A stretch of DNA of 43,349 nt from a virus (taxonomy: Duplodnaviria > Heunggongvirae > Uroviricota > Caudoviricetes): IMG/VR virus record IMGVR_UViG_2541047690_000002; one strand, given 5' to 3'. This document shows, one piece after another, positions 3,147-13,053 of the stretch. Under the pieces are notes generated by a model. It was not told the DNA's origin. It saw only the letters and a program-made list of their open reading frames with translations, and did no database searches. The stretch's first letter is position 1, and each line of letters starts with the position of its first letter. Position numbers and translations under genes: made by a program.

Positions 3147-3365
3147 TCACAATCCCCATTGTTTGTTCTTAAGTTCGATCTCCTCCTGGCAACTTGCACA
3201 AGTCCGACAACCCTGAACGGCCAGGCGTCTTCGTTCATCTATGGGATCGCCACACTCACAACAATGAGTGGCAGATATAACCTGGTGGTTCAGACGACGC
3301 ATTTTTATTGCTGTATTGCGCTGTAATTCTTCGATTTCTGATGCTGAATCAATGATGTCTGCCAT
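3147..3365 (-). CDS. TraR/DksA-family C4 zinc-finger protein
   Basis: 72-aa ORF with CCECG...CRTCASC four-cysteine arrangement typical of phage/plasmid TraR-like zinc fingers. Confidence 0.6.
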   Translation of the reverse strand: MADIIDSASEIEELQRNTAIKMRRLNHQVISATHCCECGDPIDERRRLAVQGCRTCASCQEEIELKNKQWGL

Positions 3366-3463
3366 CTTCCATTAATCCCTGAATTGTTGGTTAATACGCT
3401 TGAGGGTGAATGCGAATAATAAAAAAGGAGCCTGTAGCTCCCTGATGATTTTGCTTTTCATGT

Positions 3464-3679
3464 TCATCGCTCCTTAAAGACGCCGTTTAACATGCCGATC
3501 GCCAGGCTTAAATGAGTCGGTGTGAATCCCATCAGCGTTACCGTTTCGCGGTGCTTCTTCAGTACGCTACGGCAAATGTCATCGACGTTTTTATCCGGAA
3601 ACTGCTGTCTGGCTTTTTTGATTTCAGAATTAGCCTGACGGGCAATACTGCGAAGGGCGTTTTCTTGCTGAGGTGTCAT
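3464..3679 (-). CDS. Small early-left protein (lambda orf60a-like)
   Basis: Internal ATG start giving MTPQQENALRSIARQANSEIKK...; resembles a small ORF of the lambda b2/exo-proximal region from memory. Confidence 0.45.
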   Translation of the reverse strand: MTPQQENALRSIARQANSEIKKARQQFPDKNVDDICRSVLKKHRETVTLMGFTPTHLSLAIGMLNGVFKER

Positions 3680-4779: not shown

Positions 4780-5561
4780 GCTGCCACCTTCTGCTCAGTG
4801 GCTTTCTGTTTCAGGAATCCAAGAGCTTTCACTGCTTCGGCCTGTGTCAGTTCTGACGATGCGCGAATGTCGCGGCGAAATATCTGGGAACAGAGCGGCA
4901 ATAAGTCGTCATCCCATGTTTTATCCAGGGCTATCAGCAGAGTGTTAATCTCCTGCATGGTTTCATCGTTAACCGGAGTGATGTCGCGTTCTGGCTGACG
5001 TTCTGCAGTGTATGCAGTATTTTCGACAATGCGCTCGGCTTCATCCTTGTCATAGATACCAGCAAATCCGAAGGCCAGACGGGCACACTGAATCATGGCT
5101 TTATGCCGTAACATCCGTTTGGGATGCGACTGCCACGGCCCCGTGATTTCTCTGCCTTCGCGAGTTTTGAATGGTTCGCGGCGGCATTCATCCATCCATT
5201 CGGTAACGCAGATCGGATGATTACGGTCCTTGCGGTAAATCCGGCATGTACAGGATTCATTGTCCTGCTCAAAGTCCATGCCATCAAACTGCTGGTTTTC
5301 ATTGATGATGCGGGACCAGCCATCAACGCCCACCACCGGAACGATGCCGTTCTGCTTATCAGGGAAGGCGTAAATTTCTTTCGTCCACGGATTAAGGCCG
5401 TACTGGTTGGCGACGATCAACAATGCGATGAACTGCGCATCGCTGGCATCACCTTTAAATGCCGTCTGGCGAAGAGTGGTGATCAGTTCCTGTGGGTCGA
5501 CAGAATCCATGCCGACACGTTCAGCCAGCTTCCCTGCCAGCGTTGCGAGTGCTGTACTCAT
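4776..5561 (-). CDS. bet: Recombination protein Bet (Red-beta, single-strand annealing)
   Basis: 261-aa translation recalled as near-identical to lambda Bet; 4-nt overlap with exo. Confidence 0.95.
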
Positions 5562-5566
5562 CCGTT

Positions 5567-5863
5567 TTATACCTCTGAATCAATATCAACCTGGTGGTGA
5601 GCAATGGTTTCAACCATGTACTGGATGTGTTCTGCCATGCGCTCCTGAAACTCAACATCGTCATCAAACGCACGGGTAATGGCTTTTTTGCTGGCCCCGT
5701 GGCGTTGCAAATGATCGATGCATAGCGATTCAAACAGGTGCTGGGGCAGGCCTTTTTCCATGTCGTCTGCCAGTTCTGCCTCTTTCTCTTCACGGGCGAT
5801 CTGCTGGTAGTGACGCGCCCAGCTCTGAGCCTCAAGACGATCCTGAATGTAATAAGCGTTCAT
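5567..5863 (-). CDS. gam: Host-nuclease inhibitor Gam (short GamS form)
   Basis: 98-aa translation [21 protein letters not shown]... matches lambda GamS. Confidence 0.92.
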
Positions 5864-5938
5864 GGCTGAACTCCTGAAAATGGCTGTGAAAAAATCGCCC
5901 GCGGAATGCCAGGCTGATTCGGAAAACAGGAAAGGGGA

Positions 5939-6229
5939 TTAGTGATTCAGACCGTTGCCGCGTCCGTCGAGAAAAACTTCCACGAGCAAGTCACGGGTAT
6001 AAGTGCGCTCAATGCCGCGATGCAGATAAAGTCGTCCGCGTAAATTAGCTGATGCAGTCCAGGTACCATCTTTGCGTTTGACCAGCATTCCTGGCATGAC
6101 CGCACCGCGATTAACGGTCTGCGTTCCGTAATGTTGATGAACCATAAAAACTCCTGCCCGTAAGCTGGGCTGCTGAACATATAAAGACTTCTGCGCGTAT
6201 TCAGGCGGTGGATGGCCGCCGGTTGTCAT
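5939..6229 (-). CDS. Hypothetical protein, first gene of the leftward early operon (kil/cIII position)
   Basis: 96-aa ORF with no recognised motif; an overlapping 77-aa ORF in another frame makes the true frame and start uncertain. Confidence 0.3.
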   Translation of the reverse strand: MTTGGHPPPEYAQKSLYVQQPSLRAGVFMVHQHYGTQTVNRGAVMPGMLVKRKDGTWTASANLRGRLYLHRGIERTYTRDLLVEVFLDGRGNGLNH

Positions 6230-6419
6230 AACTAAGCCGCCTCGTTGAAGCGACTAAGGTATGAAATGTTGAGTTGATTTCAGCTGGTCACACCGACGTT
6301 CACGCGTCCGTTTCATCCCTCGCACTCCCCGAAGCCTGCTGAAATTCAAGCTGCGGATCTAAGCGGTCATCGCAACGGTGAATCAGGTGGTTGCCGTATC
6401 GTTGTGTTGTTGCGATATG

Positions 6420-6500
6420 GTGATAATAGCTATTGCTATTGGTGATATCAATACTTATTGCTATTAGTTGATGTGTTTTGATATTAAATGTTTGATAGCA
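6420..6500. promoter_or_regulatory. Putative leftward operator/promoter region (OL/PL analogue)
   Basis: AT-rich stretch with reiterated TATTGCTATT and GATATCAAAACAC-type motifs that recur in the cI-cro intergenic region (8860..8969); lies upstream of the leftward early genes. Confidence 0.45.
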
Positions 6501-6588
6501 AAAAGAATTAATTTTGTGACTTGCATCGCATAGCGATAACTGAAGTGAGGTCGTGGTGGTTTTTTGAACGGTGTGTGATGAGGGGAGG

Positions 6589-6617
6589 GCAAAAGAAAAC
6601 CCGGCACGGTGGCCGGG
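6589..6617 (-). terminator. Intrinsic terminator downstream of the cI-linked cassette
   Basis: Minus-strand reading: hairpin CCCGGC-(6 nt loop)-GCCGGG at 6600..6617 followed by GTTTTCTTTTGC U-tract (6589..6599); abuts the stop codon of the 149-aa membrane-protein gene. Confidence 0.6.
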
Positions 6618-7067
6618 TTATTGTTCTTGATTGATCTTATCGAAGATATCATGACTTAATTTTTGCACATTTAGGAAATTTACTATGAAGAAGACAATTG
6701 CGTAAATTATTAATGTGAAAAAAAGTATTGAAGGAGAGAATTTTAGTATCAGGGATTTAAATTCAAAGCTGAACTCATACTCTTTTAAATATTCACTAAG
6801 CACAAGGCATAAAGTAGAAAGAGTGAAAAAGCGCAAAAAAGAATTTCGTATAGATACCAATTCTTTTCTGATAACTTTAACATAATTAATGTTTTTAATG
6901 CCAGACATGTTAAAAGTTACAATCAACCCTAACCCGATAGAAAACATTATGCCACAGACAGAATACAATGTAGAAATCAAAAACTGATCAGGCCTCCAAG
7001 CTAAAAATGATGGAAGCCCGATAGTAATTATCAGAACAATTAGCAAGCTAGCTATTTGTCGCTTCAT
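6618..7067 (-). CDS. Small four-helix integral membrane protein in the RexB position (candidate exclusion-system effector)
   Basis: 149 aa; four hydrophobic segments of about 20 residues (approx. residues 4-24, 32-52, 80-100, 113-134); markedly AT-rich codon usage; 20-nt overlap with the upstream gene; same strand and immediately downstream of cI. Confidence 0.6.
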   Translation of the reverse strand: MKRQIASLLIVLIITIGLPSFLAWRPDQFLISTLYSVCGIMFSIGLGLIVTFNMSGIKNINYVKVIRKELVSIRNSFLRFFTLSTLCLVLSEYLKEYEFSFEFKSLILKFSPSILFFTLIIYAIVFFIVNFLNVQKLSHDIFDKINQEQ

Positions 7068-8073
7068 TTTCTATCTCTTTTAAATATCTGCTCATTTCTT
7101 GAAATACCTCTTGTTCTACAAGCTTGCCTGAATCAGTAACCTCAATTGTTACAATTTTAATCTTAAGAAGATCTTTGCCTTTTATTTCTGAGCGACCATC
7201 ACTTCGTTTGAATACAATGTTATCAAGATCACTAACAGGTTTTAATGTTGCACCTAATAGTTTAGCATAACTATCTTCATCCATGCTCCTTGGTTTACTA
7301 AACTTTATCAACAGTTCAGCTGATACTATTTGATTGTCAATTATTTCTTTTAGATTTGGGAAATTTGGTACAGCTGATTTCAATGCATTTAAAACAGCGT
7401 GTGAAAGTTTTATTTTTGTATTTTTTTCTTCAATTTCTGATGGTGGCGATTTCATATCGGATGACTGAACCAATACTTCTTTTGGAAGAGGAGATGGATC
7501 TCTCACAGAAATTGATTTTATATCCTTAAGCTGAACTTTATTACCTTTAACAATCATCGGTGTGAATTCAATCATTTCATTCCCAACCAGCCAGCGTATA
7601 TAAGTTTGTAGAGATGATATAGTCCTATTCATCTGCAGATTGGTAACTAAATAATTATCACTTATACAGAAGTAGAAATGGTTTTTGCATACGACCTCTG
7701 TATCAATGTCAGCATTATGGAGATCACTAATTGTAAATGATTTTTTGTTAAAAAGTTGATCGGGAATCTTTTCAACTCCCTCGCTTGGGGCAATTCTAAC
7801 CATTGTACAAAAAACAGAATTACTGTTGTCTGATGTCTGATAGAACGATATCAAATCTTGTTCTTGCCTAAGATCGTCAGAGTTTAAAACCATGCAACGT
7901 TCTTTTACGGTAGATGAGTCAACTAGCTTTTGTAATAAAAGCTTTTTCGCGGGGCTAGATTTTTCTGTTAGATTATTGTTTTCTATCTTAAAAGCTCTTA
8001 ATTTCACTTGTTTAGGTTTATTATGTTTTTTATTTACAGAGCTGCTATTTTCACTATTCATAGAATCAACCAT
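7048..8073 (-). CDS. Hypothetical 341-aa protein in the RexA position (candidate sensor of a cI-linked exclusion system)
   Basis: ATG at 8073; AT-rich, Lys/Asn/Ser-rich product without recognisable catalytic motif; 93-nt gap from cI stop, co-directional with cI. Confidence 0.55.
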   Translation of the reverse strand: MVDSMNSENSSSVNKKHNKPKQVKLRAFKIENNNLTEKSSPAKKLLLQKLVDSSTVKERCMVLNSDDLRQEQDLISFYQTSDNSNSVFCTMVRIAPSEGVEKIPDQLFNKKSFTISDLHNADIDTEVVCKNHFYFCISDNYLVTNLQMNRTISSLQTYIRWLVGNEMIEFTPMIVKGNKVQLKDIKSISVRDPSPLPKEVLVQSSDMKSPPSEIEEKNTKIKLSHAVLNALKSAVPNFPNLKEIIDNQIVSAELLIKFSKPRSMDEDSYAKLLGATLKPVSDLDNIVFKRSDGRSEIKGKDLLKIKIVTIEVTDSGKLVEQEVFQEMSRYLKEIENEATNS

Positions 8074-8166
8074 TGATTATGTGTAGTTTTATAATGTAGT
8101 AAGCATCAAGTATTTTTATAATTTGAGTTTGGTTTATCACACAAACATTTAAACCAACTTGCTAAG

Positions 8167-8859
8167 TCATCCATGCTTTCTGTATGTCTGCGGCATGCTC
8201 CCAATAACTTTCCCGAAGATAAACACCCGGTTCATCTCGTCTTTCTCGATCGGGTCCCACGGTGAGTAGCTCTTGTTATCAGAGATAACCAGCAGCTTAT
8301 CCTTCATCATTTGCAGGCGCTTTACATGGGCTGTGTCGTCATACAGAAACGCATAGATACCATCACCGTCGAAAGATTTAACCGTGATATCAACGAACAG
8401 AAGATCACCTGGTTCGATCGTTCCTGACATGCTGTCACCACGCACGTTAATGATGCGGATATTTTCCGCCTTCCTGCCATCGAACATGTGACGAGCATCG
8501 TCAAACGAGTACTCAACCGAGCGTAGAACTTCTACAAACTCACGGTTGATTACACCCGGCCCGGCACTGACTTCTATATCAAGAACGTCAATCTTGAAGT
8601 ATTTTGAATGGCTGACAGCAGGCTTCCCTGATTGTTGACCGTCATTTCTCATCGGGCCTATGCCTGATGAGAGCCATTCTGTTCGAACACCCAATGCATT
8701 AGCTATTTCAACAATTTTTGTTGAGCCGCGCGCGTTGCCGCTTGTCAGTCTCCAGATTGTGGGTTGAGCTACGCCAGACGCCTTTGCAAGAGCGCCTTGA
8801 GACATTCCAGATTGTTCCATCGCTAGGTTTAAGCGATCAGCAAGAGTTTCTTTTTTCAT
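8167..8859 (-). CDS. cI: CI-type prophage repressor (HTH plus LexA-like S24 peptidase domain)
   Basis: N-terminal HTH (QGALAKASGVAQPTIWRL), C-terminal self-cleavage motifs (GDSMSGTI, serine nucleophile; downstream Lys); start placed at the first ATG (MKKETL...); the track ORF reaches 8895 via a TTG codon. Confidence 0.8.
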   Translation of the reverse strand: MKKETLADRLNLAMEQSGMSQGALAKASGVAQPTIWRLTSGNARGSTKIVEIANALGVRTEWLSSGIGPMRNDGQQSGKPAVSHSKYFKIDVLDIEVSAGPGVINREFVEVLRSVEYSFDDARHMFDGRKAENIRIINVRGDSMSGTIEPGDLLFVDITVKSFDGDGIYAFLYDDTAHVKRLQMMKDKLLVISDNKSYSPWDPIEKDEMNRVFIFGKVIGSMPQTYRKHG

Positions 8860-8969
8860 AAGTTTTAATTTATACGCTTGCGTATTGATAGTCAAAACAC
8901 GTTTTGCTATTGCTTGGATTAATACGCATTGCTATTATTCATTCATTGCAATACCAATAGGAATTGATA
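8860..8969. promoter_or_regulatory. Divergent cI/cro operator-promoter region (OR, PRM/PR analogue)
   Basis: Intergenic between divergent repressor and cro; contains TTGCTATTGC, CATTGCTATT and TGATAGTCAAAACAC repeats shared with the 6420..6500 region. Confidence 0.55.
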
Positions 8970-9197
8970 ATGACAAATCAAACCATTCAACTCGCAATCA
9001 GTATTACAGGTAGTCAAAAACGACTGGCAGATCTATGCGGTGTAGCCCAACCCACAGTTTGGCGTTGGCTACACGGTGGCGGAATTGATGCCCGCTATGT
9101 AATGAAAATTGTCTCAGCCACTGGTGGAAAGATTAAACCAGCAGATATTCGTCCCGACCTCGCACCATTGTTTAACGCGAGTAATTCTGCCGCCTAA
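8970..9197 (+). CDS. cro: Cro-like HTH regulator (YdaS-type)
   Basis: About 75 aa; HTH motif GSQKRLADLCGVAQPTVWRW and C-terminal RPDLAPLF typical of YdaS-like Cro proteins; divergent from cI. Confidence 0.7.
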   Translation: MTNQTIQLAISITGSQKRLADLCGVAQPTVWRWLHGGGIDARYVMKIVSATGGKIKPADIRPDLAPLFNASNSAA

Positions 9198-9221
9198 ACT
9201 GCGGCGTTAACTGATAAGGCA

Positions 9222-9767
9222 ATGACTATGCAACCACTTACATACCAACAGACTAGCGGATTTAGCCCGACTGCGGTGATAAATCGTTCTCAAATAAAAC
9301 AAGCTCCAGACCACGAAAAAATCCGTGATGCCGTCCGCGCCTGGTCGGCTGTAGATAATCAGGATGTCGTTGCCGCACTCATTGTGAATGAGTATCGGGA
9401 GCAGGGCGACGGCACCATCGATTTCCCTGATGATGTCAGCCGTGCACGCCAGAAGCTGTTCCGCTTCCTCGATAACAAATTCGATTCTGAAAAATACCGA
9501 AATAACGTGCGTGAACTGACCCCGGCAATTCTGGCGGTACTACCGCTGGAATATCGCGGTTACCTGGTTGAGCAGGATAGCTTCATGACTCGGCTGGCTG
9601 AAATGGAAAAGGAACTCAGTGAGGCAAAACAGGCTGTCATTCTCAACGCACCACGCCACCAGAAACTGAAGGAAATTAGTGAAGGTATTGTGTCGATGTT
9701 TCGTGTGGACCCGGATCTGGCTGGTCCATTGATGGCGATGGTTACCACCATGTTGGGGGCAATATGA
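9222..9767 (+). CDS. Hypothetical protein in the cII position (possibly YdaT-like regulator)
   Basis: 181-aa ORF between cro and O; assignment by position and weak recollection of YdaT-family proteins following YdaS-type Cro; no motif verified. Confidence 0.35.
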   Translation: MTMQPLTYQQTSGFSPTAVINRSQIKQAPDHEKIRDAVRAWSAVDNQDVVAALIVNEYREQGDGTIDFPDDVSRARQKLFRFLDNKFDSEKYRNNVRELTPAILAVLPLEYRGYLVEQDSFMTRLAEMEKELSEAKQAVILNAPRHQKLKEISEGIVSMFRVDPDLAGPLMAMVTTMLGAI

Positions 9768-9853
9768 CAGGCTCAGAAATGGCGAAAGCCGGTCTGCGGG
9801 AACAGAGCCGACTTTCAGGCGCAAATCGTAACGCACTCATTGCGGGAGGAATT

Positions 9854-10783
9854 ATGGCAAACACTGCTGAGATATTCAATTTTCCAGTGCCGGATGTGGC
9901 ACAAAAGGAGCCGCGCGTGGCAGATCTCGATGATGGTTATACGCGCATTGCAAATGAGTTGCTGGAAGCTGTGATGCTGGCCGGATTAACACAGCACCAG
10001 CTTCTGGTCTTCCTGGCTGTCATGCGCAAAACATATGGCTTTAATAAAAAACTGGATTGGGTGAGCAACGAGCAACTTTCCGAATTGACCGGGATATTGC
10101 CGCACAAGTGTTCTGCTGCAAAAAGCGTTCTGGTAAAGCGTGGGATTCTTATTCAGAGCGGGCGGAATACCGGCATTAATAATGTGGTCAGTGAATGGTC
10201 AACATTACCCGAATCAGGTAAGAAAAATAAAGTTTACCTGAAAGAGGTAAATTTACCTGAATCAGGTAAAAAAAGTTTACCCAAATCAGGTAAAGACGTT
10301 TACCCGAATCAGGTAAACACAAAAGACAAACTAACAAAAGACAATATAAAACCTTATTCGTCCGAGAATTCTGGCGAATCCTCTGACCAGCCAGAAAACG
10401 ACCTTCCTGTGGTGAAACCGGATGCTGCGATTCAGAGCGGCAGCAAGTGGGGGACAGCAGAAGACCTGACCGCCGCAGAGTGGATGTTTGACATGGTGAA
10501 GACCATCGCGCCATCAGCCAGAAAACCGAATTTTGCAGGGTGGGCTAACGATATCCGCCTGATGCGTGAACGTGACGGACGTAACCACCGCGACATGTGC
10601 GTGCTGTTCCGCTGGGCATGCCAGGACAACTTCTGGTCCGGTAACGTGCTAAGTCCGGCCAAACTCCGCGACAAGTGGACCCAGCTCGAAATCAACCGTA
10701 ACAAGCAACAGGCAGGCGTGACAGCCAGCAAACCAAAACTCGACCTGACAAACACAGACTGGATTTACGGGGTTGATCTATGA
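9854..10783 (+). CDS. O: Replication initiator protein O (lambda-type)
   Basis: Start at ATG 9854 with GGGAGGA SD; N-terminus MANTAEIFNF...VADLDDGYTRIANELLEA parallels lambda O; contains in-frame iteron-encoded repeats LPESGKK. Confidence 0.88.
   Translation: MANTAEIFNFPVPDVAQKEPRVADLDDGYTRIANELLEAVMLAGLTQHQLLVFLAVMRKTYGFNKKLDWVSNEQLSELTGILPHKCSAAKSVLVKRGILIQSGRNTGINNVVSEWSTLPESGKKNKVYLKEVNLPESGKKSLPKSGKDVYPNQVNTKDKLTKDNIKPYSSENSGESSDQPENDLPVVKPDAAIQSGSKWGTAEDLTAAEWMFDMVKTIAPSARKPNFAGWANDIRLMRERDGRNHRDMCVLFRWACQDNFWSGNVLSPAKLRDKWTQLEINRNKQQAGVTASKPKLDLTNTDWIYGVDL
10203..10317. repeat. Replication origin iterons (ori-lambda type) inside the O gene
   Basis: Four to five direct repeats of TTTACC(C/T)GAATCAGGTAAA spaced about 23 bp apart (10205, 10233, 10252, 10276, 10299), followed by an A-rich stretch (10318..10355). 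Confidence 0.85.
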
Positions 10784-11847: not shown

Positions 11848-13053
11848 TTATTCAATTAACGGTACTTGTTTGTTGCAGAATACTAATATTGCATCTTGAG
11901 TAAGTTTTTTATGCATATGCTTTAGCGGCTCAATGTTAGTCTCGTAACCGAAAGTAGCGAAAAGAGTTGGTTCTATAATGAAATTTTCTTCATAAGCTTT
12001 TAGATCAAATGCTCTCTTTGCAATTAATCTAACTGCTTTCTTTCTAATGCGTGAATTATATCTATTCTCTATGCTAAGTTTAGCCATGTTTTCATCGATG
12101 TTGTTTTTTTGTTTTTTTAGTATAATTTGAATGTGATCATCATCAATTTGGCCATCTCTATATATATAATCAATGTCATAATTAAAATCAAAAAGCTGAG
12201 TGTCATTTACACCTTCAAGAAAAGGATTTGAAAATGGGCTCATGATCGGATCGAGTGATTTTTTATAAGTACTATTGCATTTAGTGCAGCTAGGAATTAA
12301 GTTAAATAAACTAAAGGAGATCAACGGATATTTGTACTTAGGTATGAAATGATCAAATGCTGGCCTGTAGCTAGTACCTGTATGGTCTTCTACTTGTTCA
12401 ATTTCTTCACTGTTGCAATATGGGCATATGCTAATGTCTAAAAAACTGTTCAATTGATACGCTGTTTCTCTATCAATAAGTGAGTATTTAAATATTTCAG
12501 AAATATTTTTAACCCATGATGGAAATAACTTAATGGTATTTTCCTTTAAAGGACCACCATTCTTGATACTTATAAGATTAAGAATCTTATCTCTTAAACT
12601 AGATAATTTTTGTGGTGAGAAATGTGTATTTAATATATCCTCAAGTATTAGGCTTTGTGTAGTTTGAGAGAAAGATGTGATTATTTTGATGGCATGTGCT
12701 AGTTCATTATAAACTATTTTTTTGTTTTCTTTTGTTTTTAAAGGTAATTGTAGGTTTGTTAATGGTTGTAAATTTAAGTGCCTTAAAAAATAATCAGGAG
12801 AATAGTACTCACACACAATTGGGTGTTTGTTGTATATTTTGATGATTATATTTTTTAATCGTTTGGGTTTTGAAAAAACTAATTTTCTGATAGTTTTTTT
12901 GTTGATTGTATTTAGAAACTCTACTTCATCGGGAGTAATGTTCAGTAACTTCCTCTGCTTCACGCGTTTATTAACTTTGCTTACTATTTTAGAAAAGGAT
13001 ATTTTTACATCAACATTGAAGTCTTTGTTTATTTTTATCATTTTTTTACTCAT
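11848..13053 (-). CDS. HNH (His-Me finger) motif protein, putative nuclease effector (PtuB-like)
   Basis: 401 aa; motif CPYCN-x20-DHFIPKYKYP-x10-NLIPSCTKCN at residues about 210-260 (nt about 12265..12426) matches the C-X2-C...DH...N...C-X2-C HNH pattern; extremely AT-rich; start overlaps upstream ATPase stop (ATGA). Confidence 0.6.
   Translation of the reverse strand: MSKKMIKINKDFNVDVKISFSKIVSKVNKRVKQRKLLNITPDEVEFLNTINKKTIRKLVFSKPKRLKNIIIKIYNKHPIVCEYYSPDYFLRHLNLQPLTNLQLPLKTKENKKIVYNELAHAIKIITSFSQTTQSLILEDILNTHFSPQKLSSLRDKILNLISIKNGGPLKENTIKLFPSWVKNISEIFKYSLIDRETAYQLNSFLDISICPYCNSEEIEQVEDHTGTSYRPAFDHFIPKYKYPLISFSLFNLIPSCTKCNSTYKKSLDPIMSPFSNPFLEGVNDTQLFDFNYDIDYIYRDGQIDDDHIQIILKKQKNNIDENMAKLSIENRYNSRIRKKAVRLIAKRAFDLKAYEENFIIEPTLFATFGYETNIEPLKHMHKKLTQDAILVFCNKQVPLIE

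What the first reader, a model, noticed from the sequence alone, without database searches (positions are those of the whole stretch)
6420..8969. Shared operator-like repeats at both ends of the immunity region define a non-lambda immunity specificity
The motifs TATTGCTATT and (T)GATA(G)TCAAAACAC recur in the cI-cro intergenic region (8860..8969) and again at 6420..6500 on the far side of the cassette. This is the arrangement expected for OR and OL sites of a single repressor, so the repressor-linked cassette is enclosed within the immunity region exactly as rexAB is in lambda. The repressor is LexA-like (S24 peptidase) rather than lambda CI, and Cro is YdaS-type.
Basis: seen in the sequence. 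Interest (0 to 1): 0.4.

Follow-up and report, generated by a model that had tools for sequence, protein, structure and literature searches.

The report
Paired operators of a lambdoid immunity region
The repeats are almost certainly the left and right operator sites of a common, non-lambda type of prophage repressor switch, and the two genes enclosed between them look like a very diverged version of lambda's rexAB exclusion system; the layout is textbook rather than new.

Summary
Both regions, 6417-6510 and 8860-8969, carry copies of one 16-bp dyad, AATAsN-N4-NsTATT (best form AATAGC-TATT-GCTATT), about four per region.

A matrix trained only on OR sites picks the OL sites as the best other hits in 43 kb. 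The same motif sits at OR and beyond cI in Klebsiella, Kluyvera, Citrobacter, Raoultella and O157:H7 relatives. Phages with identical flanks and cI C-terminal domain but another HTH swap exactly 6417-6506 for different repeats that match their own OR.

So this is OL/PL and OR/PR/PRM of one CI/Cro switch. It is not lambda's specificity, and it occurs in 723 of 5426 complete E. coli genomes.

Two corrections. Lambda CI is itself an S24 protein, so "LexA-like rather than lambda CI" is a false contrast. The TCAAAACAC motif is conserved only at OR.

No binding or exclusion has been tested. This is a new member of a known kind, of modest interest.

The parts
6417..6506 (.). OL module: a 90-bp immunity-specific block that holds the left operators and PL
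   Evidence: In heteroimmune PhiR5_1 and PhiR47_2 this block is replaced, without any gap, by different repeats, while both flanks stay identical.
6425..6440 (.). OLa: AATAGC-TATT-GCTATT, a perfect dyad that overlaps the PL -10
   Evidence: Scores 20.2 with the OR-only matrix. Coordinates. In relatives the weaker half lies on the other side, which shows the site's dyad nature.
6450..6465 (+). OLb: AATACT-TATT-GCTATT, overlapping the PL -35
   Evidence: Scores 23.1 with the OR-only matrix, the best hit outside the training sites in 43 kb. Conserved in relatives.
6470..6485 (+). OLd: GATGTG-TTTT-GATATT, a weak site.
   Evidence: 11/16 matches to ORa and ORb in the unbiased search. Only the right half is conserved by position in relatives.
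6494..6509 (-). OLc: AATTCT-TTTT-GCTATC (minus strand), upstream of PL
   Evidence: Scores 13.7 with the matrix. The block TTGATAGCrAArrGAATT is conserved in all homoimmune relatives.
6423..6451 (-). PL candidate: -35 TTGATA (6451-6446), 17-nt spacer, -10 TATTAT (6428-6423), reading leftward into kil-gam-bet-exo
   Evidence: 10 of 12 consensus matches, the best promoter-like site in 6100-9300. Conserved in Perceval and PhiR70_1.
6598..6619 (-). Intrinsic terminator-like hairpin that ends the cI-cassette transcription unit before OL
   Evidence: Stem of 8 pairs, 6 of them G-C, followed by a T run. The cassette swap boundary lies at 6617/6618.
6618..7067 (-). 149-aa small multi-pass membrane protein in the RexB-like position
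   Evidence: No Pfam, PADLOC, PHROG or NCBIfam match. Three strong hydrophobic segments plus a long fourth helix. A gene of about 150 aa always overlaps the end of the 341-aa homologue in other elements. No detectable similarity to RexB.
7048..8073 (-). 341-aa protein with a RexA/RdgC-type fold
8167..8859 (-). cI-type repressor, 230 aa: Xre/434-like HTH plus an S24 autopeptidase domain
   Evidence: Pfam Peptidase_S24 at 67 bits and HTH_3. Matches the 434 repressor and UmuD' among solved structures. 25% identity to lambda CI, with the Ala-Gly, Ser and Lys positions aligned.
8871..8886 (.). ORd: TATACG-CTTG-CGTATT, a palindrome between the PRM -35 and -10 (OR3-like position)
   Evidence: Invariant in all ten homoimmune OR regions aligned. 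11/16 matches to ORb.
8896..8911 (+). ORa: AACACG-TTTT-GCTATT. It abuts the PRM -35 and overlaps the PR -35 (OR2-like position).
8921..8936 (+). ORb: AATACG-CATT-GCTATT, overlapping the PR -10 (OR1-like position)
8950..8965 (-). ORc: AATTCC-TATT-GGTATT (minus strand), downstream of the predicted PR start and overlapping the cro ribosome-binding site
   Evidence: Its GGAATT half resembles the AGAATT half of OLc, where there is no ribosome-binding site.
8867..8895 (-). PRM candidate: -35 TTGACT (8895-8890), 17-nt spacer, -10 TAAATT (8872-8867). It lies 7 nt before the cI ATG, which implies a leaderless cI mRNA.
   Evidence: Found. Both hexamers and the spacing to the ATG are conserved in relatives. 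Leaderless cI and paaR2 are described in PMC8630535.
8910..8938 (+). PR candidate: -35 TTGCTT, 17-nt spacer, -10 TATTAT
   Evidence: Read from the sequence. The -10 and the TTG are conserved in relatives. It falls below the scanner's -35 threshold.
8970..9197 (+). cro, YdaS-type HTH, 75 aa
   Evidence: Pfam YdaS_toxin at 54.6 bits against a cut-off of 30. Matches phrog_35.
9222..9767 (+). YdaT-type cII equivalent, 181 aa
   Evidence: Pfam YdaT_toxin at 105 bits. Matches phrog_163, 'CII-like'.

Best explanation
The repeats are the operator sites of a lambdoid CI/Cro bistable switch.

The unit is a 16-bp imperfect dyad, AATAsN-N4-NsTATT. Its strongest half-site is AATAGC, and its perfect form is OLa at 6425-6440. 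About four copies lie in OR (8871-8965), between the divergent cI and cro genes. About four more lie in OL (6425-6509), 2.47 kb away on the far side of the cI-linked cassette.

Inferred mechanism, by position and by analogy with lambda and CP-933P:
- Repressor dimers on ORb and ORa, 25 bp apart centre to centre, cover the -10 and -35 of PR.
- The ORa-bound dimer abuts the -35 of PRM and may activate a leaderless cI-cassette transcript.
- ORd lies inside PRM and would give autorepression or Cro-mediated shut-off.
- OLa and OLb, also 25 bp apart, cover the -10 and -35 of PL, which drives kil-gam-bet-exo.
- The repressor carries an S24 domain with Ala-Gly, Ser and Lys in place, so induction is probably by RecA-stimulated self-cleavage.

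The cassette (6618-8073) lies inside the immunity region and is co-oriented with cI. It has no terminator before it and one after it, so it is probably expressed in the lysogen. It is most likely a diverged RexAB-type module.

Shown: the motif, its statistics, its conservation, its co-variation with the HTH domain, the module boundaries, and the fold match.

Inferred: who binds the sites, the promoter assignments, activation, DNA looping, and the cassette's function.
For: Statistics:
- k-mer sharing between the two regions is reached by 0 of 2000 shuffles, and OL is the top window of the 43 kb.
- A matrix trained only on OR sites scores the OL sites 23.1, 20.2 and 13.7. The maximum anywhere else in 86,172 positions is 8.4, and the maximum for shuffled OL is 19.0.
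- An unbiased search of 16-mers returns the same eight sites.

Conservation:
- A Klebsiella phage whose cI-cro region is 74% identical in DNA, an O157:H7 prophage, and prophages in four species (two Kluyvera, Citrobacter pasteurii, Raoultella lignicola) with repressors 56-83% identical were scanned.
- In each, matrix hits of at least 11 cluster at two places only, apart from a single 11.7 hit in L014: next to the cI start, and 0.9-2.9 kb beyond the cI end.
- The OR alignment shows four invariant blocks separated by variable spacers.
- At OLa and OLb the strong and weak halves swap sides between lineages, as expected of a dyad.

Co-variation:
- PhiR5_1, PhiR47_2 and a Klebsiella grimontii prophage keep the same cI C-terminal domain. 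The two phages also keep the flanks.
- They have a different HTH, no matrix hit of 11 or more, and GTTGTT/AACAAC repeats at both their OL and their OR.
- The swapped OL block is exactly 6417-6506.
- L017 has a diverged C-terminal domain but the same HTH, and it keeps the operators.

Promoters and terminator.

Repressor domains.

Cassette:
- It is replaced precisely at 6618-8170 in homoimmune phages.
- It is 32-33% GC against about 51% in the flanking phage genes.
Against: - There are no binding or reporter data for this immunity type in the library searched.
- PR has a weak -35 (TTGCTT, 3 of 6) and was not called by the scanner.
- ORc overlaps the cro Shine-Dalgarno sequence, so part of its conservation may be translational.
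- OLd is weak, and only its right half is conserved.
- The sites are ordered in the same direction in OL and OR rather than as mirror images as in lambda. The Klebsiella and Raoultella OLs are inverted.
- CI and Cro sites cannot be told apart computationally.
- The RexA relationship is at fold level only. PADLOC's RexA and RexB models hit lambda's proteins but not these, and hhalign is not significant.
- The membrane partner shows no RexB similarity.
Confidence: 0.85

Rival explanations
1. The repeats are bound mainly or only by Cro (YdaS) or by the YdaT CII-equivalent, and the S24 repressor recognises something else.
For: Two half-site flavours exist. AATAGC dominates at the PR and PL sites, while ORd inside PRM is built from two ATACG halves. 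This could reflect different protein preferences. A match with one mismatch to the CP-933P YdaT site, TTGATTN6AATCAA, overlaps the cro ATG at 8964-8981.
Against: In lambda and in CP-933P, the repressor and Cro/YdaS protect overlapping sites (PMC8630535). The motif co-varies with the repressor's HTH domain, although cro is swapped in the same block. The YdaT-like match is not conserved in relatives. No such site lies at the end of cro, which is where CP-933P has it.
Confidence: 0.08
2. The similarity is a by-product of AT-rich promoter DNA (shared -10 and -35 elements) and is not a protein-binding motif.
For: Both regions are 25-30% GC. TATTAT is part of two sites and serves as the -10 of PL and PR.
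Against: Shuffles that preserve composition never reach the observed sharing. 417 other AT-rich windows share at most 8 7-mers with OR, against 22 for OL. The motif extends beyond the promoter hexamers. It is conserved across genera while the spacers vary. It is replaced in concert at both ends in heteroimmune phages.
Confidence: 0.02
3. The enclosed cassette is not a RexAB-type exclusion system. The 341-aa protein would be a RdgC/RexA-fold DNA-binding protein with another role, for example tuning the lysis-lysogeny switch or recombination, and the membrane protein would be unrelated to RexB.
For: There is no sequence similarity to RexA or RexB. No RexB-like fold hit was found for the partner. 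The RexA paper reports a RexB-independent role of RexA in the switch (PMC11077077).
Confidence: 0.35

Closest known systems
Bacteriophage lambda immunity region (OL/PL - rexB - rexA - cI - OR/PRM/PR - cro)
   Same: The gene order and strands are the same, with multiple 16-17-bp operators about 24-25 bp apart overlapping PR, PRM and PL. The distance between OL and OR is about 2.4 kb, and a terminator lies between the cassette and OL. The repressor is HTH+S24, and a leaderless cI is predicted. The cassette's first protein has the RexA fold.
   Different: The operator sequence is unrelated, and no lambda-type operator is present. The repressor is only 25% identical, and its HTH is closer to that of 434. 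There are about four sites per side rather than three, ordered in the same direction at both ends. Cro is YdaS-type and the CII equivalent is YdaT-type. There is no N gene after PL. The cassette proteins fall outside the RexA and RexB sequence families.
Cryptic prophage CP-933P switch: PaaR2 / YdaS / YdaT with paaA2-parE2 enclosed (PMC8630535, PMC9986795)
   Same: A YdaS-type Cro and a YdaT-type CII equivalent are present. The accessory cassette lies downstream of the repressor in place of rexAB. There are four repeats in the intergenic region, with similar operators at a PL-like promoter beyond the cassette, and a leaderless repressor mRNA.
   Different: The CP-933P repeat consensus is GTTTAGTAA-type, not AATAGC-N4-GCTATT. 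Its cassette is a toxin-antitoxin pair. No YdaT inverted repeat lies at the end of cro here.
Phage 434 repressor and its 14-bp operators
   Same: It is the closest solved relative of the N-terminal DNA-binding domain, at E about 2e-5. By my own knowledge of 434, its operators are also dyads with conserved outer half-sites and a non-contacted centre.
   Different: Similarity is low, and the operator sequence and length differ.
RexAB-type system of Pseudomonas putida prophage P1 (PMC12894663)
   Different: That system was validated experimentally and this one has not been. No sequence comparison between the two was made here.
BstA locus of Salmonella phage BTP1, and the cI-to-N mosaic hotspot (PMC8585504)
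   Same: A defence gene sits directly downstream of the prophage repressor. That paper describes the region between cI and N as a hotspot of mosaic diversity. The same behaviour is seen here, where the slot holds a SIR2 protein, HipA/HipD, GevT/GevA, a ParA-like protein or hypothetical proteins.
   Different: The proteins are unrelated.

Membership tests
Lambdoid immunity region with paired OL/OR operators | Several copies of one operator motif lie between divergent repressor and cro genes and overlap promoter-like elements | tested here: met
   Four sites lie at 8871-8965 and overlap the PRM and PR candidates.
Lambdoid immunity region with paired OL/OR operators | A second cluster of the same motif overlaps a leftward early promoter beyond the repressor operon | tested here: met
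   Sites lie at 6425-6509 and overlap PL, which matches 10 of 12 consensus positions. The second cluster is conserved in 7 relatives from other taxa.
Lambdoid immunity region with paired OL/OR operators | The operators change together with the repressor's DNA-binding domain (immunity specificity) | tested here: met
   Heteroimmune relatives swap 6417-6506 and the HTH-OR-cro block together.
Lambdoid immunity region with paired OL/OR operators | The repressor and Cro bind these sites and control PR, PL and PRM | not testable with these tools
   This needs EMSA, footprinting and reporter fusions.
Lambda immunity specificity (imm lambda) | Operators of the lambda type, TATCACCGC..GGTGATA | tested here: not met
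   No good match was found in the window: only two unrelated hits with four mismatches. This motif's matrix finds nothing in lambda's immunity region, where the maximum score is 5.6.
CI-type phage repressor (HTH + S24 self-cleaving domain; includes lambda CI and LexA relatives) | An N-terminal HTH and a C-terminal Peptidase_S24 domain, with the Ala-Gly site and the Ser/Lys dyad | tested here: met
   Pfam S24 at 67.2 bits against a cut-off of 23.3, and HTH_3 at 28.3 against 23. VSAGPG, GDSMSG and HVKRL align with lambda's AG, S149 and K192 regions.
CI-type phage repressor (HTH + S24 self-cleaving domain; includes lambda CI and LexA relatives) | RecA-stimulated autocleavage on SOS induction | not testable with these tools
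   The near-identical sequence is deposited as a complete phage genome, PhiR68_2, whose recorded host is ECOR13. Cleavage itself was not examined.
YdaS-type Cro | A match to Pfam YdaS_toxin above the gathering score, in the cro position | tested here: met
   54.6 bits against a cut-off of 30. The gene is divergent from cI.
YdaT-type CII equivalent | A YdaT domain, plus a TTGATTN6AATCAA site at the end of cro as in CP-933P | tested here: inconclusive
   The domain is met, at 105 bits. No such repeat with up to two mismatches lies at 9100-9300, and the only near-match overlaps the cro ATG. The paper says the YdaT recognition loop is highly variable.
RexAB | Membership of the RexA sequence family | tested here: not met
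   PADLOC's RexA model hits lambda RexA at 9e-110 but not this protein. BLASTP and hhalign are not significant.
RexAB | The RexA fold (split globular domain plus dimerisation domain, RdgC-like) | tested here: met
RexAB | A small multi-pass membrane partner encoded immediately downstream | tested here: met
   The 149-aa protein has 3-4 hydrophobic helices, and the gene pair overlaps. The pairing is conserved in Pasteurella, Klebsiella and Bacteroidota elements.
RexAB | The partner is homologous to RexB | tested here: not met
   There is no PADLOC RexB hit. hhalign probability is 0.6%. No RexB appeared among the BFVD fold hits.
RexAB | Excludes superinfecting phages such as T4 rII, with both genes required | not testable with these tools
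   This needs plaque assays.

The most novel reading that the evidence does not exclude
The enclosed two-gene cassette (341 aa with a RexA fold, plus a 149-aa membrane protein) represents a widespread RexAB-type abortive-infection family that has diverged beyond sequence recognition. It is found from Enterobacterales and Pasteurellaceae to Bacteroidota and is missed by Pfam, PADLOC, PHROGs and NCBIfam. In this phage it sits in the ancestral rexAB slot. In addition, the switch may use two half-site flavours, AATAGC and ATACG, to separate repressor and Cro preferences across four sites per operator.
Probability: 0.45. Interest if true: 0.45.

Novelty: new member of a known kind. Interest (0 to 1): 0.3.

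Why it matters
This immunity type is common. Its HTH-OR-cro block is in 723 of 5426 complete E. coli genomes, including O157:H7, and in at least ten sequenced phages. I found no description of its operators.

Defining the 16-bp operator, the roughly 90-bp OL module and the promoter layout has three uses:
- It allows heteroimmunity to be predicted.
- It gives clean boundaries for engineering or swapping the cI-adjacent accessory slot.
- It explains how cassettes as different as a SIR2 protein, HipA/HipD or this RexA-fold pair could be expressed in lysogens, on the inference that they are co-transcribed with cI.

The fold-level link of the cassette to RexA adds a candidate to the small set of RexAB-type systems. 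It also shows that sequence-based defence finders miss them.

None of this changes the accepted picture of lambdoid switches.

Tried and rejected
- **Exact search for the second motif.** GATANTCAAAACAC matches only once. The two copies differ by an indel, and only the 9-mer core is shared.
- **Rfam on 5500-10000.** Only sub-threshold hits on the terminator hairpin were found.
- **RNA fold of the 190-nt PL leader.** It is not significantly structured, with z = -1.27. The relatives are too similar for covariation analysis.
- **YdaT site.** It is not present at the end of cro.
- **Sequence and profile comparison of the cassette proteins with RexA and RexB.** Nothing was found.
- **Fold search of the membrane protein against BFVD.** No hit had E of 0.001 or less, and RexB did not appear.
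- **Window 3361-3470.** It shares 11 7-mers with OR, but it holds only a TAATACGCTTG fragment and has no matrix hit. I treat it as chance.
- **Literature.** I searched for a paper describing the ECOR PhiR phage panel or this operator. Only an incidental mention of PhiR68.2 turned up.
Full report
**What the window is**

Positions 6200-9250 are 99.9% identical to Escherichia phage PhiR68_2 (host ECOR13), where the genes are annotated cI, Cro and cII. The gene order is:

- exo, bet, gam and a kil homologue on the minus strand, ending at 6229
- a 190-nt non-coding leader
- the AT-rich block 6417-6510
- a hairpin terminator at 6598-6619
- two minus-strand genes of 149 aa (6618-7067) and 341 aa (7048-8073)
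- a 230-aa repressor (8167-8859, minus strand)
- the 110-bp intergenic region 8860-8969
- cro (8970-9197, plus strand), then a YdaT-type gene (9222-9767), then O and P

Yes. TATTGCTATT occurs exactly at 6431 and 6456, and with one mismatch at 8902, 8927 and 8950(-). These are 5 of the 8 matches with up to one mismatch in 43 kb, against 2.9 expected.

The two regions share 21 7-mers and 14 8-mers, against 4.7 and 1.6 in dinucleotide shuffles. None of 2000 shuffles reaches the observed values. Scanning every 96-nt window of the 43 kb against OR puts the 6411-6421 windows first, at 21-22 shared 7-mers. The 417 other AT-rich windows share at most 8.

The second motif is weaker. Only the 9-mer TCAAAACAC is shared (8892 plus strand, 6473 minus strand), and a third copy lies elsewhere. 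The fuller pattern matches once only.

**What the repeat unit is**

Reading both strands gives eight related 16-mers of the form AATAsN-N4-NsTATT (coordinates, with ORd and ORc shifted by one base after inspection):

| Site | Coordinates | Sequence |
|---|---|---|
| OLa | 6425-6440 | AATAGC-TATT-GCTATT (perfect dyad) |
| OLb | 6450-6465 | AATACT-TATT-GCTATT |
| OLd | 6470-6485 | GATGTG-TTTT-GATATT (weak) |
| OLc | 6494-6509 (-) | AATTCT-TTTT-GCTATC |
| ORd | 8871-8886 | TATACG-CTTG-CGTATT |
| ORa | 8896-8911 | AACACG-TTTT-GCTATT |
| ORb | 8921-8936 | AATACG-CATT-GCTATT |
| ORc | 8950-8965 (-) | AATTCC-TATT-GGTATT |

An all-against-all comparison of 16-mers, made without reference to my reading, returns exactly these eight: 7 partners for the best seed, against a shuffle mean of 2.8 and maximum of 6.

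**An independent test**

I built a weight matrix from OR sites only: three from this window and two further distinct ones from the OR of a Klebsiella phage. In the whole window its best hits outside the training set are OLb (23.1), OLa (20.2) and OLc (13.7). Nothing outside OL and OR exceeds 8.4 in 86,172 scored positions. Shuffled OL sequences reach at most 19.0 in 3000 trials.

**Comparative evidence**

- *Same immunity, different cassette.* PhiR70_1, Perceval and others match 5900-6617 and 8171-9798 at 96-99%. They carry unrelated genes between those blocks.
- *More distant relatives.* These are Klebsiella phage ST11-VIM1phi8.2 (cI-cro 74% identical in DNA), an O157:H7 prophage, and prophages in two Kluyvera species, Citrobacter pasteurii and Raoultella lignicola (repressor 56-83% identical). 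Matrix hits of at least 11 fall in two clusters only, apart from one 11.7 hit in L014. One cluster is next to the cI start. The other is 0.9-2.9 kb beyond the cI stop, whatever lies in between.
- *Footprint pattern.* The OR alignment shows four invariant blocks, which are the four sites plus the promoter hexamers, separated by variable spacers.
- *Dyad behaviour.* At OL, the strong and weak half-sites swap sides between lineages, and whole sites are inverted in the Klebsiella and Raoultella versions. This is how a dyad behaves, not a directional element.
- *Natural controls.* PhiR5_1, PhiR47_2 and a Klebsiella grimontii prophage keep the cI C-terminal domain. The two phages also keep both flanks of OL. 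They have a different HTH and cro, no matrix hit of 11 or more, and GTTGTT/AACAAC repeats at both their OL and their OR. The alignment places the swapped OL block at exactly 6417-6506, with no gaps.
- *The converse case.* L017 has a diverged C-terminal domain but the same HTH, and it keeps the operators.

Operator sequence therefore tracks the DNA-binding domain at both ends of the region. That is the genetic definition of an immunity region.

**Promoters and likely mechanism (inferred)**

- *PL.* TTGATA-17-TATTAT at 6451-6423 (minus strand) is the best promoter-like site in 6100-9300. OLa overlaps its -10 and OLb its -35.
- *PRM.* A candidate, TTGACT-17-TAAATT at 8895-8867 (minus strand), ends 7 nt before the cI ATG. 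This predicts a leaderless mRNA, as described for lambda cI and CP-933P paaR2. Both hexamers and the spacing are conserved.
- *PR.* I read this as TTGCTT-17-TATTAT at 8910-8938. The -10 is conserved, but the -35 is weak and the scanner did not call it.
- *Site positions.* ORb covers the PR -10. ORa covers the PR -35 and abuts the PRM -35, which is lambda's OR2 position. ORd lies inside PRM, the OR3 position. ORc lies just downstream of the PR start.
- *Spacing.* Centre-to-centre distances are 25, 25 and 29 bp in OR, and 25, 20 and 24 bp in OL. OL and OR are 2.47 kb apart, similar to lambda.

This matches the logic shown experimentally for lambda and for CP-933P. In CP-933P, four repeats lie in the intergenic region and similar operators sit at a PL beyond the enclosed cassette. 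Binding, activation and looping are untested here.

**The repressor**

It has HTH_3 and Peptidase_S24 domains. Its N-terminal domain is closest to the 434 repressor among solved structures, and its C-terminal domain is closest to UmuD'. It aligns with lambda CI at 25% identity over 212 residues, with the Ala-Gly, Ser and Lys positions in register.

Lambda CI is itself an S24 protein, and RefSeq labels it 'LexA family'. This is a CI-type repressor of a different specificity.

Lambda-type operators are absent from the window, and this motif is absent from lambda's immunity region.

**The cassette**

It is 32-33% GC, against about 51% in the flanking phage genes. It is bounded exactly by the terminator and the cI stop. 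It is present in 42 of 5426 complete E. coli genomes, whereas the HTH-OR-cro block is present in 723.

In relatives the slot holds other cargo:
- a SIR2 family protein in the O157:H7 prophage
- HipA/HipD in PhiR5_1 and GevT/GevA in PhiR47_2, both pairs annotated as toxin-antitoxin
- a ParA-like protein in the Klebsiella phage
- hypothetical proteins in PhiR70_1 and Perceval

This agrees with the published view of the cI-to-N interval as a mosaic hotspot.

Neither cassette protein matches Pfam, PADLOC, PHROGs or NCBIfam. PADLOC's RexA and RexB models do recognise lambda's proteins.

The 149-aa partner has three strong hydrophobic segments and four long helices. It has no detectable similarity to RexB.

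The overlapping gene pair recurs in three other settings: a Pasteurella chromosomal locus, a Klebsiella mobile element next to a superinfection-immunity gene, and a Mu-like prophage of Bacteroidota.

I therefore call it a RexAB-type candidate at fold and architecture level. It is not a member of the RexA or RexB sequence families.

**Verdict**

The arrangement is the textbook lambdoid one. The specific operator appears undescribed in the literature I could search, and the immunity type is common. This is a new member of a known kind, of modest interest. The most interesting loose end is the RexA-fold cassette.

Noticed in passing
window 6230-6416 (minus strand), between PL and kil: There is no N-like antiterminator gene after PL. 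A 190-nt leader is conserved at 95-100% in 16 E. coli phages, including heteroimmune ones. The short phi80 homology (window about 6206-6266) maps just downstream of phi80's N gene. The only ORF is 31 codons long and arginine-rich (..GMKRTRERRCDQ.., 6254-6349). It is in frame with kil. It is closed by TAG here but reads CAG in Perceval, where 'Kil' is annotated as 139 aa. There is also no room for a nutR between cro (which ends at 9197) and ydaT (which starts at 9222). How early antitermination works in this phage group is unclear.
   Followed up: partly
window 8964-8981: TTGATAATGACAAATCAA matches the CP-933P YdaT operator TTGATTN6AATCAA with one mismatch and overlaps the cro start codon. It is not conserved in the Kluyvera, Citrobacter or Klebsiella relatives, so it may be chance.
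   Followed up: partly
L007 3854-5455; L005 2955-4528; L006 2927-4355; L004 3633-4709: The same slot between cI and OL carries other cargo in relatives: a SIR2 family protein in an O157:H7 prophage, HipA/HipD in PhiR5_1, GevT/GevA in PhiR47_2, and a ParA-like protein in a Klebsiella phage. The slot behaves as a cargo or defence hotspot with fixed boundaries at the terminator and the cI stop.
   Followed up: partly
L003 1925-3475 (phage Perceval): Perceval's cassette is also a protein of about 340 aa followed by a 168-aa membrane protein. The large protein is 22% identical to the window's over 212 residues, with pairwise E of 0.004. It is probably a second, very diverged member of the same two-gene family in the same slot.
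   Followed up: partly
window 11848-13053 (minus strand): A 401-aa ORF lies downstream of the replication gene P. It has only a sub-threshold HNH match, at 18.8 bits against a cut-off of 21.4. It may be another accessory gene.
   Followed up: no
window 8167-8859 versus L017 6001-6732: The repressor is itself mosaic. The HTH domain and the S24 domain recombine independently: L017 has the same HTH with a diverged C-terminal domain, while L016, PhiR5_1 and PhiR47_2 have the same C-terminal domain with a different HTH. The junction lies near window 8723.
   Followed up: partly
window 3388-3401: GTTAATACGCTTGA shares 8-9-mers with ORb and ORd, which puts this intergenic window second for k-mers shared with OR. 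No full operator-like site is present.
   Followed up: yes
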